This document shows positions 8,668-56,223 of a stretch of 64,000 nucleotides of DNA, in pieces. The position numbers and the translations under genes were made by a program. The notes below the pieces were generated by a model, which was given only the letters and a program-made list of their open reading frames with translations, was not told the DNA's origin and did not search any database. Position 1 is the first letter of the stretch, and every line of letters begins with the position of its first letter. This stretch comes from Dehalococcoidia bacterium (GTDB lineage: Bacteria; Chloroflexota; Dehalococcoidia; Lucifugimonadales; UBA3495). Location of the stretch: NCBI GenBank assembly GCA_965203855.1, contig CBDBDN010000005.1, positions 577,804 to 641,803 of the forward strand, in the 5' to 3' direction.

Positions 8668-9354
8668 CTAGCGGCACCACGCCATATGCGCCCAGCGGAT
8701 GTACTGCGCGCCGTAGCTGGAGGGCGCTCTAACCTCCTGGTATCTCCCCCTTGAGAAGTAATGTAATACGCCGGTGGTAGTTATGTCGCCGGCATCAAGT
8801 TCCCCATTGTTGTTGCGGTCAATTACAACCCGGCGCCCGCTATTGGTTACGAATCCGCTGGTGCCATCGGAGGCGGTGATGCGGCTCCCTACCGGAGCGT
8901 TAGGGTCCGCAACGCCTTGGTGGGGTGGGGTAAGATAGTTGTTGCGCGCGTCAGCCAGAGCATTCGCAAGGCTGCCCCAGCCCCCGGTGTCCAAAATGCT
9001 GTTGAAAGTGTATTCGCCCGGTACGAAGGTCGCTCCGCGTACCAGTACAATCAGCCAGCCGCTGTCGCTGTTGCCGCCGTTGTACGCCGCCTGGCCGTCG
9101 CGGACGCCGTAATAACGGGGCTGCTGGCCGTATTCCTGGCAAACCCGCTGGGTGTAAATGTAGCCGCCAAAAGCGCCTTGCGCGGCGGCGTTGGGCGGGT
9201 TGTTGGGAAAGGCCAGCCCGCCGGCAACGGACAGCATCGCCAGGACGCCGATAACGGCAACCTTGCCCAGCCGCCACGCCCGCGCTTGCTTTACATAACT
9301 ACGGGGGGGGGTAGAACGCAACAGATGATTCATAATTCGTCCAACTCTCCGCAA
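8668..9354 (-). CDS. secreted hypothetical protein, paralog A (C-terminal YIRWAHMAWCR)
   Basis: 228 aa. N-terminal signal/anchor (KVAVIGVLAMLSVAGGLA). Shares the YxYTxRVCQEYGQQPRxYxVRDGQxAYNGGNSDSGWLIVL core and the YIRWAHMAWCR tail with the 55526-56087 gene. Contains an in-frame C9 tract (G9 on the plus strand, 9303-9311). Confidence 0.6.
   Translation of the reverse strand: MRRVGRIMNHLLRSTPPRSYVKQARAWRLGKVAVIGVLAMLSVAGGLAFPNNPPNAAAQGAFGGYIYTQRVCQEYGQQPRYYGVRDGQAAYNGGNSDSGWLIVLVRGATFVPGEYTFNSILDTGGWGSLANALADARNNYLTPPHQGVADPNAPVGSRITASDGTSGFVTNSGRRVVIDRNNNGELDAGDITTTGVLHYFSRGRYQEVRAPSSYGAQYIRWAHMAWCR
9303..9311. repeat. homopolymer G9 (C9 on the coding strand) inside codons 8-11 of paralog A
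   Basis: Read directly: acc ccc ccc cgt = TPPR. Confidence 0.9.
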
Positions 9355-41838: not shown

Positions 41839-41874
41839 GGGGGGGGGGGGGGGGGGGGGGGGGGGAGAGAGAGA
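41839..41874. repeat. G27 homopolymer followed by (GA)5
   Basis: Counted directly: 27 G (41839-41865), then GAGAGAGAGA overlapping the last G. It occupies the position of GTGGGGGTGGGGAGATG in the paralogous copy. Confidence 0.95.
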
Positions 41875-52291: not shown

Positions 52292-53983
52292 TTGTCGGAA
52301 CGAATTCTAATCGGCGTCGCCTGGCCTTACGCCAACGGCCCGCTCCATATGGGCCACATCGCCGGCTGCTACCTGGCCGCCGATATTTTCGCGCGCTACC
52401 ACCGCATGAAAGGCAACGCCGTCCTGATGGTGTCCGGCTCGGACGCCCACGGCACCCCCATCACCATCCGCGCCGACCAAGAAGGCGTATCCCCCGCCGT
52501 AATCCTGGAACGCTACCATCAGCAGTTCCTGGACACCTGGCAGCGACTGGGCATCACCTTTGACCTGTTCACCACCACGCATACCGCCAACCACCAGCAG
52601 GTTGTGCAGGACTTTTTCCTCCGCCTCCTGGATGCCGGCTACATCTACCCGGATATGATGCTGCTGGCCCACTGCGCCCGCTGCGTCCGTTTCCTGCCCG
52701 ACCGCTATGTTGAGGGAACCTGCCCCCACTGCCGCAGCGCCGGCGCCCGCGGCGACCAGTGCGACGCCTGCGGACGCACCCTTGACCCCATTGAACTGCT
52801 CAATCCCTACTGCAACATCTGCCAGGCCGAACCCGATTTCCGCGAATCGGAGCATTTTTTCCTGCGCCTCTCCGCATTTCAGGAACCATTGCTGGAATGG
52901 ATTGAAAGCAAAGCGCACTGGCGCCCCAATGTCGCCAACCAGACCGCCAGTTTCCTGCGCGGCGGCCTCAAAGACCGCGCCATCACCCGCGACCTTGCTT
53001 GGGGGGTGCCGGTGCCACTGGACGGGTACGACGCCAAGCGCATCTATGTCTGGTTTGAGGCCGTTATCGGCTACCTCTCCGCCGCCGTAGAATGGGCCGC
53101 CAATTCCGGCAGCGCCGACACTGACACCGACGGCAGCGGCTGGCAAGCCTACTGGAAAGATGACGCCGCCCGCTCCTACTATTTCATCGGCAAGGACAAC
53201 ATCCCCTTCCACAGCATCATCTGGCCGGCGATGCTGATGGGCTACGGCGGCCTCAACCTGCCTTACGACGTCCCCGCCAACGAATTCCTCAGCCTGGAAA
53301 GCCGCAAGTTCTCTACCAGCCAGAATTGGGCGCTGTGGGTGCCCGACTACCTGGACAACTACGACCCCGACCCGCTGCGCTATATGCTGTCCATCAATAT
53401 GCCGGAAAGCGGCGATACCGATTTCAGCTGGGCCGAATTCGTCCGCCGCAACAATGACGAACTCGTAGCCACCTGGGGCAATCTGGTCAACCGCGTGCTG
53501 CGGTTCACTTATCGCAATTTCGACGGCCAGGTTCCCGCCGTCGCCGCACCGCCGGGCGATGCCGAGGCCGAACTGCTGGCCGCCGCGCACCGGGCGATGG
53601 CGGCAGTGGACGACTGCATTTATCATACCCGCTTCCGGGCCGGCATCAGCGCCGCTTTCGGATTCGCCCAGGAAGTGAACCGCTACCTGGACGCCCGCGC
53701 GCCCTGGCTTTCCATCAAAACCGACCGCGCGGACGCCGCCGCCGCCCTTACCGCCGCAATCCAGGCTGTCAACTGCCTCAAAGTTATGCTGCAACCCTAC
53801 CTCCCGTTCACCGGCCAGCAAGTGCACGAGTTCTTGGGATTTGACGGCGACGCAATGGCCGAACCCTGGGACTGCGCCGCCCTGGCCGACGCTGTCAAAC
53901 CCGGCGCGCCGCTCCGCAATCCCGCCGCCCTGTACGCCAAGCTGGACCCGCCGGCCGCCGAACCCCCTGGCGACGACGCCTGA
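52292..53983 (+). CDS. metG: methionine--tRNA ligase
   Basis: AWPYANGPLHMGHIAG (HIGH), zinc knuckles CPHC..CDAC, and KFSTS (KMSKS variant). Confidence 0.95.
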   Translation: MSERILIGVAWPYANGPLHMGHIAGCYLAADIFARYHRMKGNAVLMVSGSDAHGTPITIRADQEGVSPAVILERYHQQFLDTWQRLGITFDLFTTTHTANHQQVVQDFFLRLLDAGYIYPDMMLLAHCARCVRFLPDRYVEGTCPHCRSAGARGDQCDACGRTLDPIELLNPYCNICQAEPDFRESEHFFLRLSAFQEPLLEWIESKAHWRPNVANQTASFLRGGLKDRAITRDLAWGVPVPLDGYDAKRIYVWFEAVIGYLSAAVEWAANSGSADTDTDGSGWQAYWKDDAARSYYFIGKDNIPFHSIIWPAMLMGYGGLNLPYDVPANEFLSLESRKFSTSQNWALWVPDYLDNYDPDPLRYMLSINMPESGDTDFSWAEFVRRNNDELVATWGNLVNRVLRFTYRNFDGQVPAVAAPPGDAEAELLAAAHRAMAAVDDCIYHTRFRAGISAAFGFAQEVNRYLDARAPWLSIKTDRADAAAALTAAIQAVNCLKVMLQPYLPFTGQQVHEFLGFDGDAMAEPWDCAALADAVKPGAPLRNPAALYAKLDPPAAEPPGDDA

Positions 53984-54058
53984 CCCGCGCGCCCGGCCCA
54001 TCGCCCCTGTCCATCGCCCCGGCTTTAGCCCCCCGTTTTTAGCAGAGGATATTGCACC

Positions 54059-55057
54059 GTGCCGCCCGGTTCCGACCTGGAAACCGTCTCTATCTACGCC
54101 CCGGTGGTTGACCAGCTGGCCGCGGTTGAGGAGCAGCTGCGGTCGGTTTGCCATACCGACATCGCCGACCTGAACCCGCTGCTGGACTATGCCCTCAGCT
54201 CCGCCGGCAAACGCGTGCGGCCGGCCCTGACGCTGCTCGCCGGCGGTTTTCACCAGCACGACGGCCAGCGCACCCGGATTATGGCCGCGGCGGTAGAACT
54301 CCTGCATCTCGCCACCCTGATCCACGATGACACCGTGGACAACGCCGGTATGCGGCGCGGCAAGCCCACCATCAACAAACTCTACGGCAGCCATGTGGCC
54401 GTCCTGCTCGGCGATTACCTGTTCGCTGCCTCTGCTACCTTTGTCTGCGACACCGGCGTAGTGCGCGTCATTCGCCGCTTTTCCGAAACCATTATGGAAC
54501 TGGCCAGCGGCCAGCTGATTGAGTTTTTCACCACTTTTGACCCCGCCAAAGCCCGGCGGCTCTACGATGAACGCATCTACCGCAAAACCGCCTCTCTGTT
54601 CTGCACCGCAGCCGAATCCGGCGCCGTCCTCAGCGGCGCGCCGGAACGCCAGGTTGCCGCCCTCCGCAACTACGGCTATCGCATCGGGATGGCCTTTCAG
54701 ATTGTGGACGACCTGCTGGACGTGCAGGGCAACGCCTCCGAACTGGGCAAGCCGGTGGGCAATGACCTGATGCAGGGCGTCCTTACGCTGCCGTCCATTA
54801 TGCTGCTGGAACGCTGCCCGGACGAACATCCCATTGACGCCCTGTTCGCCGCCATCAAGTCGGACGATGCCGCCGCCGCCGACCTGCTGAACCGCACCCT
54901 GGATATGATTGACGCTGCCGACATTATCCCGGACTGTTTCGCCGTAATCCGGGAGCATTGCGCCGCCGCCGCCGCCGCCCTGGACGCCCTCCCCGACTGC
55001 CCGCCCCGCCGTTCCCTATCCCAAATGGTGGACTACATCCGGGAACGCACGCGCTAA
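54059..55057 (+). CDS. polyprenyl diphosphate synthase (long-chain trans-IPPS)
   Basis: First DDxxD (LIHDDTVDN) and second (VDDLLD) aspartate-rich motifs. GTG start. Confidence 0.85.
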   Translation: MPPGSDLETVSIYAPVVDQLAAVEEQLRSVCHTDIADLNPLLDYALSSAGKRVRPALTLLAGGFHQHDGQRTRIMAAAVELLHLATLIHDDTVDNAGMRRGKPTINKLYGSHVAVLLGDYLFAASATFVCDTGVVRVIRRFSETIMELASGQLIEFFTTFDPAKARRLYDERIYRKTASLFCTAAESGAVLSGAPERQVAALRNYGYRIGMAFQIVDDLLDVQGNASELGKPVGNDLMQGVLTLPSIMLLERCPDEHPIDALFAAIKSDDAAAADLLNRTLDMIDAADIIPDCFAVIREHCAAAAAALDALPDCPPRRSLSQMVDYIRERTR

Positions 55058-55098
55058 AGCGTGCCGTCAAACGCGCTGCCGTTCCCGCGCCCAACGCC

Positions 55099-55387
55099 GC
55101 CATTCCGAACCCTTACAACCGCCATTCCGAACCCTTACAACCGTCATTCCGAACCCTTACAACCGTCATTCCGAACCCTTACAACCGTCATTCCGAACTC
55201 TTACAACCGTCATTCCGAACTCTTACAACCGCCATTCCGAACTCTTACAACCGCCATTCTGAACTCTTACAACCGCCATTCCGAACTCTTACAACCGTCA
55301 TTCCGAACTCTTACAACCGCCATTCCGAACCCTTACAACCGCCATTCCGAACCCTTACAACCGTCATTCCGGCGCAAGCCGAAATCC
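55099..55387. repeat. family-A tandem array, 12 units of 22 bp plus a terminal hairpin unit
   Basis: G(C/T)CATTCCGAAC(C/T)CTTACAACC repeated head to tail, ending GTCATTCCGGCGCAAGCCGAAATCC. Confidence 0.95.
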
Positions 55388-55525
55388 TGCCTATCCGTAT
55401 ATCCCCCGAAAGCCCAAAATCCCCGTCCACTCTGCCAGCAACGCCCGGCCAGCCTTATGGTACAATAGGAGCCGTCTAAAACTCGCAAGCGTTAGTACAG
55501 ACACTGCGCCAAAGGAGGCAGCATT

Positions 55526-56087
55526 ATGCTGAAAAAGATTGCCCTGGCAACCGCGGCCGCCAGCGGCCTTTTCGCCGTCATCGCCATCGGAATTCTGCCC
55601 CCCCCCCTCCGCTAAAGCTACCAGCTTGGGCGGTTACACTTATACCCTGCGGGTTTGCCAGGAGTACGGCCAGCAGCCCCGTTGGTACAATGTCCGCGAC
55701 GGCCAGTCCGCCTACAACGGCGGCAACAGCGACAGCGGCTGGCTCATTGTCCTGGAACACGGCAGCCATGTCGCAGCCGTAGCCGGCACGCCGGACCGCT
55801 ATGTAAGAAACGACGCCAGCGGCGATTATGTTTGGAACGGTTTCGGTAGCCGCTACATCCGGTTAACCGGCAATCGCTTCACCAGACACGGACCTGATGA
55901 TTACCGCTTGGATCCCGCCGGTAATCGCGTCAGAACCGCTACTACGCCTTGGAGCCCCGGCGACCCCACTCCTGCCGCGGATTTTTCCGCCTTTCTCTAC
56001 CGCTACGACCGCATCCCGGGCACCCCGGACACCCCCGCAAGAGGCGGCCAATACATCCGCTGGGCCCATATGGCCTGGTGCCGATAA
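55526..56087 (+). pseudogene. secreted hypothetical protein, paralog B, split by a C10 tract (frameshifted or phase-variable)
   Basis: The ATG at 55526 encodes the signal peptide MLKKIALATAAASGLFAVIAIGILPPP, then hits a stop. The mature domain (SAKATSLGGYTYTLRVCQEYGQQPRWY..YIRWAHMAWCR) continues in the next frame. A C9 tract would join the two frames. Confidence 0.6.
55598..55607. repeat. C10 homopolymer at the signal-peptide/mature-domain junction of paralog B
   Basis: Counted directly (ctg + 10 C + tcc). Confidence 0.95.
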
Positions 56088-56126
56088 CCCGACAATCGAG
56101 CGGGCCGCGTTTCCTTTCAAGGCGCG

Positions 56127-56223
56127 TCGTCATTCCGAACCCTTATAACCGTTCAAGGCGCGTCGTCAAATGCGCCGTCATTCCGAACCTTTATAACCGT
56201 CATTCCGGCTTGCGCCGGAATCC
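56127..56223. repeat. family-A units (two CGTCATTCCGAACC(C/T)TTATAACC half-sites plus a hairpin)
   Basis: Ends GTCATTCCGGCTTGCGCCGGAATCC. Confidence 0.8.

What the first reader, a model, noticed from the sequence alone, without database searches (positions are those of the whole stretch)
55526..56087. C10 tract separates the signal peptide from the mature domain of a secreted protein: candidate slipped-strand switch
Seen: the ATG at 55526 encodes MLKKIALATAAASGLFAVIAIGILPPPLR, then a stop. The conserved mature domain (SAKATSLGGYTYTLRVCQEYGQQPRWYNVRDGQSAYNGGNSDSGWLIVL..GGQYIRWAHMAWCR) continues in the adjacent frame, directly after the 10-C run at 55598-55607. With 9 C the two parts join, giving a canonical signal peptide ending PPPSAKA. 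Established knowledge: homopolymer-length changes at the 5' end of surface-protein genes are the classic contingency-locus mechanism. The same signature also arises from homopolymer sequencing error.
Basis: partly seen in the sequence, partly recalled or inferred. Interest (0 to 1): 0.6.

Follow-up and report, generated by a model that had tools for sequence, protein, structure and literature searches.

The report
Poly-C on/off switch, secreted-protein family
A run of ten C's knocks a secreted-protein gene of an uncultured Dehalococcoidia bacterium out of frame, and the same gene is in frame with twelve C's in a closely related population; it is one of about 36 copies of an orphan gene family that each carry such a slippery run, the design of the random on/off gene switches known from pathogens such as Neisseria.

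Summary
ATG 55526 opens a canonical signal peptide, C10 lies at 55598-55607, the frame stops at 55613-55615, and the mature domain continues in the +1 frame to 56087. The tract is really C10-T-CC (13 nt).

This is not an isolated broken gene.
- The 3.38-Mb genome has about 40 paralogs of this orphan domain. Thirty-six carry a C9-C26 run at the 5' end, always C on the coding strand.
- Their phases are uniform (11/11/14), yet the reading frames on both sides of the tract stay intact.
- Four syntenic ortholog pairs give pN/pS 0.39.

The decisive comparison is a same-locus allele from another metagenome (L051). Its signal-peptide code is nearly identical, it has an uninterrupted C12, and it reads through in frame. 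A third allele has an unresolved run of about 42 C. Four other syntenic loci also differ in tract length between populations.

Best reading: a slipped-strand ON/OFF locus caught in the OFF state.

The protein's function is unknown (no Pfam, NCBIfam, PDB or fold match). The mechanism is classical; the phylum, the protein family and the scale are new.

The parts
55058..56174 (+). Whole self-contained cassette (repeat array, promoter, gene, downstream repeats). It is present in this genome and in alleles L050 and L051. It is absent from the related populations L049 and L052-L054.
   Evidence: blastn and alignment of the syntenic contigs. In L049 the polyprenyl synthase stop is followed by about 90 nt of degenerate repeats and then the amidohydrolase.
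55097..55371 (+). 22-bp tandem array, 12.5 copies of CCGCCATTCCGAACCCTTACAA, ending in a REP-like hairpin unit (ATTCCGGCGCAAGCCGAAAT, 55366-55385). Copy number differs between alleles (about 8 in L051, about 6 in L050).
   Evidence: Tandem Repeats Finder; allele alignment.
55456..55466 (+). Promoter-like extended -10 element, TATGGTACAAT (TG-n-TACAAT). It is conserved 55-70 nt upstream of the start codon in most type-A paralogs and in the metagenome alleles.
   Evidence: Upstream comparison of the paralogs and alleles. The consensus scan did not call it because there is no good -35. Its function is inferred.
55512..55518 (+). Shine-Dalgarno sequence AAGGAGG, 7 nt before the ATG.
   Evidence: Sequence; conserved in paralogs.
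55526..55597 (+). Signal-peptide code: n-region MLKK and h-region IALATAAASGLFAVIAIGIL.
   Evidence: It is identical in protein to the in-frame allele P0237, with 1 synonymous DNA difference.
55598..55610 (+). The switch: C10 (55598-55607), then T (55608) and CC (55609-55610). At 13 nt it is one base more than the in-frame C12 allele. In frame it would encode the poly-Pro c-region of the signal peptide.
   Evidence: alignment with L051 (C12) and L050 (about C42 at a contig end).
55613..55615 (+). TAA that ends the start-codon frame in the present (OFF) phase.
55611..56087 (+). AKA cleavage motif (55611-55619) and mature domain in the +1 frame. It has a conserved N-module (GGYTYT..CQEYGQQPRWYNVRDGQ.AYNGGNSDSGWLIVLE), a variable beta-rich middle and a conserved C-module (GGQYIRWAHMAWCR), with one Cys in each conserved module.
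   Evidence: AlphaFold2 models are confident only for the middle.
56120..56215 (+). Downstream GTCATTCCG-type repeat units and a hairpin (ATTCCGGCTTGCGCCGGAAT). They form the right border of the cassette and overlap the 3' end of the convergent amidohydrolase gene region.
8668..9333 (-). Second family member in this window (type-B leader MNHLLRST, then C9 at 9303-9311, then the signal peptide). It is in frame in the assembly.

Best explanation
The gene at 55526-56087 is an intact member of a lineage-specific family of small secreted proteins with about 40 copies. Its expression is gated by a hypermutable poly-C tract. The tract lies in the signal-peptide code, between the hydrophobic core and the AKA cleavage motif.

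Slipped-strand mispairing during replication changes the run length. When the length is in phase (as in the C12 allele), the tract is read as a short poly-proline c-region that is cut off with the signal peptide, and the protein is exported. In the other two phases translation stops 2-5 codons after the tract and no exported protein is made.

The window's allele (C10-T-CC, 13 nt) is one base too long and therefore OFF. Loss of one C, or gain of two, would restore it.

Each of about 36 paralogs carries its own tract, so a population can express many different subsets of a family that has conserved ends and a highly variable middle.

Shown: the anatomy, the family, the tract-length and ON/OFF polymorphism at the same locus and at four other syntenic loci, and purifying selection on copies that are out of frame.

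Inferred: the DNA-slippage mechanism, reversibility and rate, export and cleavage, and any benefit to the bacterium.
For: 1. Anatomy. The order is promoter-like element, SD, ATG, n- and h-regions, tract, AKA, mature domain. The tract lies in a part of the protein that is removed, so it tolerates length changes of 3 nt.

2. Same-locus alleles.
- L051 has the same gene order (MetRS, polyprenyl synthase, this gene, amidohydrolase) at 93-97% nucleotide identity. It has C12 and a 186-aa in-frame product, MLKKIALATAAASGLFAVIAIGILPPPPAKATSLGG....
- L050 has the same promoter and signal peptide, and its contig ends in about 42 C.

3. Four other syntenic paralog pairs all differ in tract length (9 vs 8, 17 vs 15, 15 vs 13, 14 vs 11) inside flanks that are 94-100% identical. 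ON/OFF state differs at 2 of the 5 loci.

4. Genome census. Of 78 G/C runs of 9 or more, 36 lie 10-170 nt before the family domain, all as C on the coding strand. Run lengths are bimodal.

5. Phases are 11/11/14 (chi-square p = 0.78). With every copy truly in frame, even a 30% per-tract consensus error rate gives P of about 1e-6 for 25 of 36 being out of frame.

6. Out-of-frame copies are not decaying.
- Start codon, signal ORF and mature ORF are intact in all but about 4 copies.
- Pooled pN/pS is 0.39 for four ortholog pairs, three of them OFF here (p = 2e-5).
- Lineage-specific changes are 2 synonymous and 3 non-synonymous on the OFF window allele, against 4 and 5 on the ON allele.

7. Some distant family members have the same signal peptide without a tract (P0219). 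The tract is therefore an add-on to an ordinary secreted protein.
Against: - Length heterogeneity within a population, reversibility and rate are all unmeasured.
- All tract lengths come from assembly consensus sequences, short-read or unknown technology, which are least reliable at long homopolymers.
- The alleles compared differ by 3-7% overall, so the tract differences could have accumulated slowly.
- The T interruption shortens the mutable run to C10 and may slow or lock this copy.
- Since its recent duplication from the C7:164395-type copy, the target lineage carries about 6 non-synonymous and 2 synonymous changes. One is Ala to Ser at a nearly invariant position. This fits neutrality, although the numbers are small.
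- Canonical MutS and MutL are present, so slippage rates may be lower than in Campylobacter or Helicobacter.
- No evidence of expression, and the function is unknown.
Confidence: 0.72

Rival explanations
1. Consensus (assembly) error. The organism really has an in-frame tract here, and the extra base is a homopolymer miscall.
For: Homopolymers are the classic indel-error site. The in-frame allele differs by a single base in length. The sequencing technology of this MAG is unknown to me, and reads could not be inspected.
Against: - The difference from C12 is not a pure length change. The window has a T inside the run (C10-T-CC), which is not the usual homopolymer miscall.
- 25 of 36 paralogs are out of frame, spread evenly over both wrong phases. 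That cannot be produced by plausible error rates (P of about 1e-6 even at 30% error per tract).
- Independent assemblies of the sister population also show out-of-frame copies (P0001, P0011, P0025, P0236).
Confidence: 0.08
2. Young pseudogene. This copy slipped out of frame, acquired a C-to-T interruption that stabilises the OFF state, and is now drifting towards loss. The tract is a historical cause of death, not a working switch.
For: - The interruption reduces the run from 13 to 10.
- The non-synonymous to synonymous ratio since the recent duplication is about 6:2, and an invariant Ala is changed to Ser.
- The cassette is dispensable, being absent in L049 and L052-L054.
- A sibling copy (C7:164395) is clearly dead: truncated at the 5' end and carrying a 3' frameshift.
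- Two other paralogs carry second frameshifts (C8:468748, C8:492635).
Against: - No stop or further indel in 72 + 477 nt of coding sequence.
- Promoter-like element, SD, start codon and signal peptide are identical or nearly identical to the in-frame allele.
- No excess of lineage-specific non-synonymous changes relative to the ON allele (3 vs 5).
- C10 is still within the range of tracts that switch in known systems (G/C 9-21 in Neisseria, PMC5953494).
Confidence: 0.12
3. Expression without DNA change. RNA-polymerase slippage or ribosomal frameshifting on the C run restores the frame in a fraction of transcripts or translations, so the gene is constitutively leaky rather than switched.
For: Runs of 10-26 identical bases can in principle let the RNA:DNA hybrid realign. 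Purifying selection on copies that are OFF in the assembly would also be explained this way. This rival does not exclude the main reading.
Against: - Programmed frameshifting predicts one conserved phase and a defined slippery motif, but the paralogs occupy all three phases equally (11/11/14).
- In genome-wide transcript-error data, all insertions in homopolymers fell in A or T runs. The authors conclude that G and C runs are not prone to slippage, though only runs of up to 9-11 nt were sampled (PMC5574713).
- In-frame alleles exist at the DNA level.
Confidence: 0.08

Closest known systems
Neisseria opa (opacity protein) multigene family
   Same: A multi-copy family of exported proteins. Each copy has its own promoter and its own simple-sequence repeat inside the signal-peptide code, so copies switch ON and OFF independently by frameshift. 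The ends are conserved, the internal regions are hypervariable, and copies are mosaic (PMC5953494; here).
   Different: - The repeat is a C homopolymer, not CTTCT pentamers.
- It lies in the c-region and is read as poly-Pro, not in the hydrophobic core.
- There are 36 tract-bearing copies against 4-12.
- There is no sequence or fold relation: the protein here is an orphan soluble protein, not an outer-membrane beta-barrel.
- The host is an uncultured Chloroflexota bacterium, not a human pathogen.
Neisseria pilC1/pilC2 (G/C homopolymer in the 5' coding region)
   Same: A homopolymeric G/C run of 9-20 within the reading frame near the 5' end sets ON or OFF by frameshift (PMC5953494). That the run lies in the signal-peptide code is from my own knowledge (Jonsson et al. 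1991).
   Different: pilC has two copies of a large pilus-associated protein. Here a large family of about 150-aa secreted proteins of unknown function is involved, with tracts up to 26-27 nt.
Campylobacter jejuni poly-G phasome
   Same: Genome-wide use of G/C homopolymers as switches in surface-related genes, and a bimodal excess of long G/C runs (PMC8437040; PMC6097035).
   Different: - C. jejuni lacks MutS/MutL-type mismatch repair (my own knowledge), whereas this genome has both.
- C. jejuni tracts are mostly G8-G13 in glycan-modifying enzymes. Here the mode is C15-C17, and half of the tracts serve one orphan secreted family.
Poly(A)-tract frameshifts rescued by transcriptional slippage in insect endosymbionts (Buchnera, Blochmannia)
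   Same: Homopolymer-associated frameshifts in genes of a host-associated bacterium that nevertheless stay under selection (PMC3017870; PMC5574713).
   Different: Those are A/T tracts in AT-rich reduced genomes and are rescued at the RNA level. Here the tracts are C runs in a 62% GC genome, placed at one conserved position of a secreted family, with in-frame DNA alleles in related populations.

Membership tests
Simple-sequence contingency locus (phase-variable gene) | A simple-sequence repeat of mutable length (for G/C homopolymers about 8-9 or more) within the ORF or promoter | tested here: met
   C10 at 55598-55607 inside the signal-peptide code. The genome-wide excess of long G/C runs is bimodal.
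Simple-sequence contingency locus (phase-variable gene) | Tract length determines whether the product is made (frame or promoter spacing) | tested here: met
   13 nt gives a stop at 55613. The C12 allele L051 gives a 186-aa in-frame precursor.
Simple-sequence contingency locus (phase-variable gene) | Tract length differs among closely related strains while the flanks are conserved | tested here: met
   Target locus: C10-T-CC, C12 and about C42. Four other syntenic loci all differ.
Simple-sequence contingency locus (phase-variable gene) | High-frequency, reversible length change within a clonal population | not testable with these tools
Simple-sequence contingency locus (phase-variable gene) | The gene stays functional whatever its phase (no decay of OFF copies) | tested here: met
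   ORFs are intact on both sides of the tract in about 34 of 38 copies. Pooled pN/pS is 0.39, p = 2e-5. The OFF allele is no more damaged than the ON allele.
Simple-sequence contingency locus (phase-variable gene) | The product is surface-exposed or secreted, or modifies the surface | tested here: inconclusive
   By inspection there is an n-h-c signal peptide with an AKA motif and two conserved Cys. No signal-peptide predictor and no experiment were available.
Opa protein family (homology) | Sequence or fold relation to the Opa outer-membrane beta-barrel family | tested here: not met
   No Pfam, NCBIfam or PDB sequence hit and no Foldseek hit. It works like opa but is not a member.
Programmed ribosomal frameshift gene | A conserved shift direction at a defined slippery site in all members | tested here: not met
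   Paralogs occupy phases 0, +1 and +2 as 11/11/14, and in-frame alleles exist.
Pseudogene | Further inactivating mutations and relaxed selection | tested here: inconclusive
   No stops or extra indels, and no excess damage against the ON allele. However, the tract has a T interruption and the non-synonymous to synonymous ratio since duplication is about 6:2.

The most novel reading that the evidence does not exclude
An uncultured, probably sponge-associated Dehalococcoidia bacterium runs a pathogen-style combinatorial variation system. About 36 independently switchable copies of an orphan secreted protein (conserved disulfide-linked N and C modules framing nine classes of variable beta-rich middle domain) belong to a set of 78 G/C homopolymer tracts that also mark other secreted, membrane and DNA-methylase genes. 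This would be the first contingency-locus repertoire described in Chloroflexota. It would imply strong, fluctuating selection on a symbiont's exposed proteins, from host recognition or from phage.
Probability: 0.5. Interest if true: 0.75.

Novelty: new member of a known kind. Interest (0 to 1): 0.6.

Why it matters
Phase-variable multigene families are textbook biology of host-adapted pathogens. I found no report of them in Chloroflexota or in sponge symbionts in the held literature.

If the switch is real, this environmental symbiont devotes about 78 hypermutable tracts, half of them in one orphan secreted family, to stochastic variation of what it exposes. That points to recognition pressure from the host or from phages, and it gives a concrete handle on it.

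There is also a practical point. Automated annotation mis-calls these genes: NCBI's product for this locus is a 153-aa protein starting inside the mature domain, without its signal peptide (P0235). MAG pipelines that 'polish' homopolymers would erase the signal.

Tried and rejected
- **Function of the domain:** nothing found.
  - Pfam: no hit.
  - NCBIfam: no hit.
  - PDB by profile: only E = 0.1 noise.
  - AlphaFold2: two models, mean pLDDT 67-70. The variable middle is confident and the conserved N and C modules are poor.
  - Foldseek against PDB, two searches: no match below E = 1.
- **Distribution:**
  - Absent from 40 relatives and from 400 genomes of the class.
  - Absent from GTDB genome contigs by pattern scan.
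  - Absent from JGI metagenome contigs, both by junction DNA pattern and by profile.
  - Only 47 clusters among 1.84 billion representatives.
- **Loss of mismatch repair as the cause of long tracts:** rejected, because MutS_I and MutL_C are both present.
- **The exact 22-bp repeat as a general companion of the family:** rejected at up to 4 mismatches, with only 12 arrays in the genome. A looser GTCATTCC core is common genome-wide (1860 hits) and lies near 30 of 38 copies. That enrichment is not corrected for intergenic location, so I make no claim of a mobility mechanism.
- **P0001 (87% identical) as the ortholog of the target:** rejected. Its flanks match the truncated C7:164395 copy.
- **Sample origin:** the accession numbers were not found in the paper library. 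'Sponge-associated' rests on earlier notes and on the record prefix, and is not verified here.

Full report
**1. Observation**

The sequence is as described.
- AAGGAGG lies at 55512-55518 and the ATG at 55526.
- The ATG opens MLKKIALATAAASGLFAVIAIGIL (55526-55597), followed by ten C (55598-55607).
- The start-codon frame then reads CTC CGC TAA and stops at 55613-55615.
- The +1 frame is open from 55608 (SAKATSLGGYTYT...) to the stop at 56085-56087.
- One C fewer joins the two frames.

The tract is far from chance. G/C homopolymers in the 3.38-Mb, 62% GC genome fall 5099, 985, 255, 36, 11, 3 for lengths 5 to 10. They then rise to a second mode at 14-17 and reach 27. A/T runs never exceed 8.

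**2. A large family, not a lone gene**

The mature domain has about 40 copies in the window's own genome, including a second copy in this window at 8668-9333 on the minus strand. The family has three parts:
- a conserved N-module, 87% mean pairwise identity, containing one Cys;
- a highly variable middle, 26% identity, falling into nine classes;
- a conserved C-module, 73% identity (GGxYxRWAHMAWCR), containing the second Cys.

There are two kinds of 5' end.
- Type A, which includes the target, runs start codon, signal peptide, poly-C, AKA.
- Type B runs MTAIL, poly-C, RHWLTKNLTTAWLRLGK..., a signal peptide ending AEAQA.
- Two middle classes occur behind both leader types, so the family is mosaic.

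Of the 78 G/C runs of 9 or more in the genome, 36 lie 10-170 nt before the family domain, and every one is C on the coding strand. The other 42 mostly lie immediately ahead of long open frames, several of which recur as secreted or membrane gene families, plus one DNA methylase. This agrees with earlier notes on this genome.

**3. Phase and integrity**

Scoring the start-codon frame against the domain frame gives 11 in-frame copies and 11 and 14 in the two wrong phases, which is uniform (chi-square p = 0.78). If all copies were truly in frame, even a 30% consensus error per tract would give 25 or more of 36 out of frame with P of about 1e-6.

The out-of-frame copies nevertheless keep their start codon, their signal-peptide ORF and a full-length mature ORF. 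Only about four copies show a second lesion: C8:468748, C8:492635, the 5'-truncated C7:164395, and C9:71870.

Four paralogs have syntenic orthologs at 94-97% nucleotide identity in metagenome contigs. Pooled, these give 39.5 synonymous and 49.5 non-synonymous differences, a pN/pS of 0.39 (p = 2e-5 against neutrality). Three of the four are out of frame in this assembly. The frame state is therefore young compared with the genes.

**4. The same locus in other populations**

I used the neighbouring polyprenyl synthase to find syntenic contigs.

- **L051** (ERZ23495693, a 45-kb scaffold) has the same gene order: MetRS, polyprenyl synthase, this gene, amidohydrolase. Its signal-peptide code differs from the window's by one synonymous base. 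The tract is an uninterrupted C12. The called product P0237 (186 aa) reads MLKKIALATAAASGLFAVIAIGILPPPPAKATSLGGYTYT..., that is, in frame.
- **L050** (another sample, 96% identity) has the same promoter and signal peptide, but its contig ends inside about 42 C.
- **L049 and the more distant L052-L054** lack the gene. They have only GTCATTCCGG-type repeats between the two neighbours.

The cassette 55058-56174 is therefore a strain-variable insertion, and where present its tract is C12 (ON), C10-T-CC (OFF) or very long.

At the four other syntenic loci the tract also differs every time (9/8, 17/15, 15/13, 14/11). At C2:7240 it is almost the only difference in about 400 nt.

Between the window allele and L051 there are 7 synonymous and 14 non-synonymous codon differences, nearly all in the variable middle. 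Polarised with L013, 2 synonymous and 3 non-synonymous fall on the window lineage, against 4 and 5 on L051. The OFF allele is not decaying faster.

**5. Mechanism**

The best-supported reading is a slipped-strand contingency locus. The tract lies in the one part of the precursor that tolerates variable length, the c-region, which is cleaved off with the signal peptide. In-phase lengths give a Pro(n)-AKA junction. Other lengths end translation within a few codons.

Several steps are inferred, not shown:
- that slippage occurs at a high, reversible rate within a population;
- that the precursor is exported and cut after AKA;
- that variation is selected.

Mismatch repair (MutS_I and MutL_C) is present, so the tracts are not a by-product of lost repair.

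The T interruption leaves C10 as the mutable part. This may lower the rate at this copy.

**6. Rivals**

- **Consensus error at this locus** cannot be excluded without reads. It is made unlikely by the internal T and by the family-wide phase pattern.
- **A young pseudogene** is the most serious rival for this particular copy.
  - In its favour: the interrupted tract, the dispensable cassette, a dead sibling copy, and about 6 non-synonymous against 2 synonymous changes since the recent duplication, including Ala to Ser at a nearly invariant position.
  - Against it: there are no further lesions, and no excess damage over the ON allele.
- **RNA-polymerase or ribosomal slippage** would predict a conserved phase, which is not seen. 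Published transcript-error data found no insertions in G or C runs (PMC5574713). For very long runs it remains possible as an addition to DNA switching.

**7. What the protein is**

This is unknown.
- No Pfam, NCBIfam or PDB sequence match.
- Only 47 clusters among 1.84 billion representatives.
- Absent from 440 related genomes and from the JGI metagenomes.
- AlphaFold2 models are confident only for the beta-rich middle, and they find no structural neighbour.
- Some middle classes contain D-x-N-x-D-G-x-I/D loops that look like calcium-binding loops (by eye).
- Distant members include proteins with the same signal peptide and no tract (P0219).

**8. Comparison with known systems**

Functionally this is closest to the Neisseria opa family and to pilC. 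Those have a repeat or homopolymer in the leader code, independent switching of each copy, conserved ends and variable cores. In scale it resembles whole phasomes: 36-82 loci in Neisseria lactamica and maxima of 54 and 47 in the pathogenic species (PMC5953494). There is no homology to any of them.

Three full-text searches found no description of such loci in Dehalococcoidia, Chloroflexi or sponge symbionts.

Earlier notes of this scan report similar poly-G/C-gated families in related genomes. I treated these as leads and checked only the genome-wide tract census myself.

**9. Verdict**

- The mechanism is classical.
- The lineage, the protein family and the scale are new.

Noticed in passing
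window 55097-55371 and 56120-56215; genome-wide: The cassette sits inside arrays of a GTCATTCCG-type repeat with REP-like hairpins (ATTCCGG-N4-CCGGAAT). The 22-bp unit has 12.5 copies here, about 8 in L051 and about 6 in L050. The same intergenic site in gene-less relatives holds other variants of the repeat. A loose core motif occurs 1860 times in the genome, in 223 arrays, and near 30 of 38 family genes.
   Followed up: partly
G000 C7:164395-164796 (outside the window): A nearly identical sibling of the target (1 synonymous difference over 133 codons) is truncated at the 5' end by a rearrangement and has a +1 frameshift near its 3' end. Its intact ortholog is P0001 on L013, whose left flank maps 56 kb away on C7. 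That ortholog itself has a C7 tract and is out of frame.
   Followed up: partly
window 55620-56087 (public annotation): The public (NCBI) product for this locus appears to be P0235, 153 aa. It starts at the TTG inside SLGGYTYT, so it is annotated without its signal peptide. Metagenome gene callers likewise start at out-of-frame TTG codons or at internal ATG codons (P0001, P0007, P0008).
   Followed up: yes
G000, 42 G/C runs of 9 or more outside this family (for example window 41839-41865, C8:141394, C4:28869, C5:1272593): Other long G/C runs mark the 5' ends of further multi-copy genes. These include a secreted family REKRFLL...DRWLDLP (5 copies), ETAEAH..YLTGY (4), ITAGTALDAA..YFDV (3), membrane proteins ALCNLKRY... 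(3-4), large membrane proteins, and a DNA methylase with a C9 run, which is a possible phase-variable methylase.
   Followed up: partly
type-B paralogs, for example G000 C2:7240 and C5:728180: In type-B genes one wrong phase stops at a TGA directly after the tract. A few copies have an internal ATG (MAWLRLGK...) that would still give a complete signal peptide. The tract there may act on a short leader ORF rather than as a plain ON/OFF frame switch.
   Followed up: no
paralog middle domains (for example window 8668-9333, C8:607961, C5:27646): Several middle-domain classes contain a D-R-N-N-D-G-x-I/L-D motif resembling EF-hand or dockerin-type calcium-binding loops. The target's class lacks it.
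   Followed up: no
window 52307-54958 minus strand: An 883-aa open frame lies antisense to metG and the polyprenyl synthase gene. It is a typical spurious long ORF of GC-rich DNA, not a gene.
   Followed up: no
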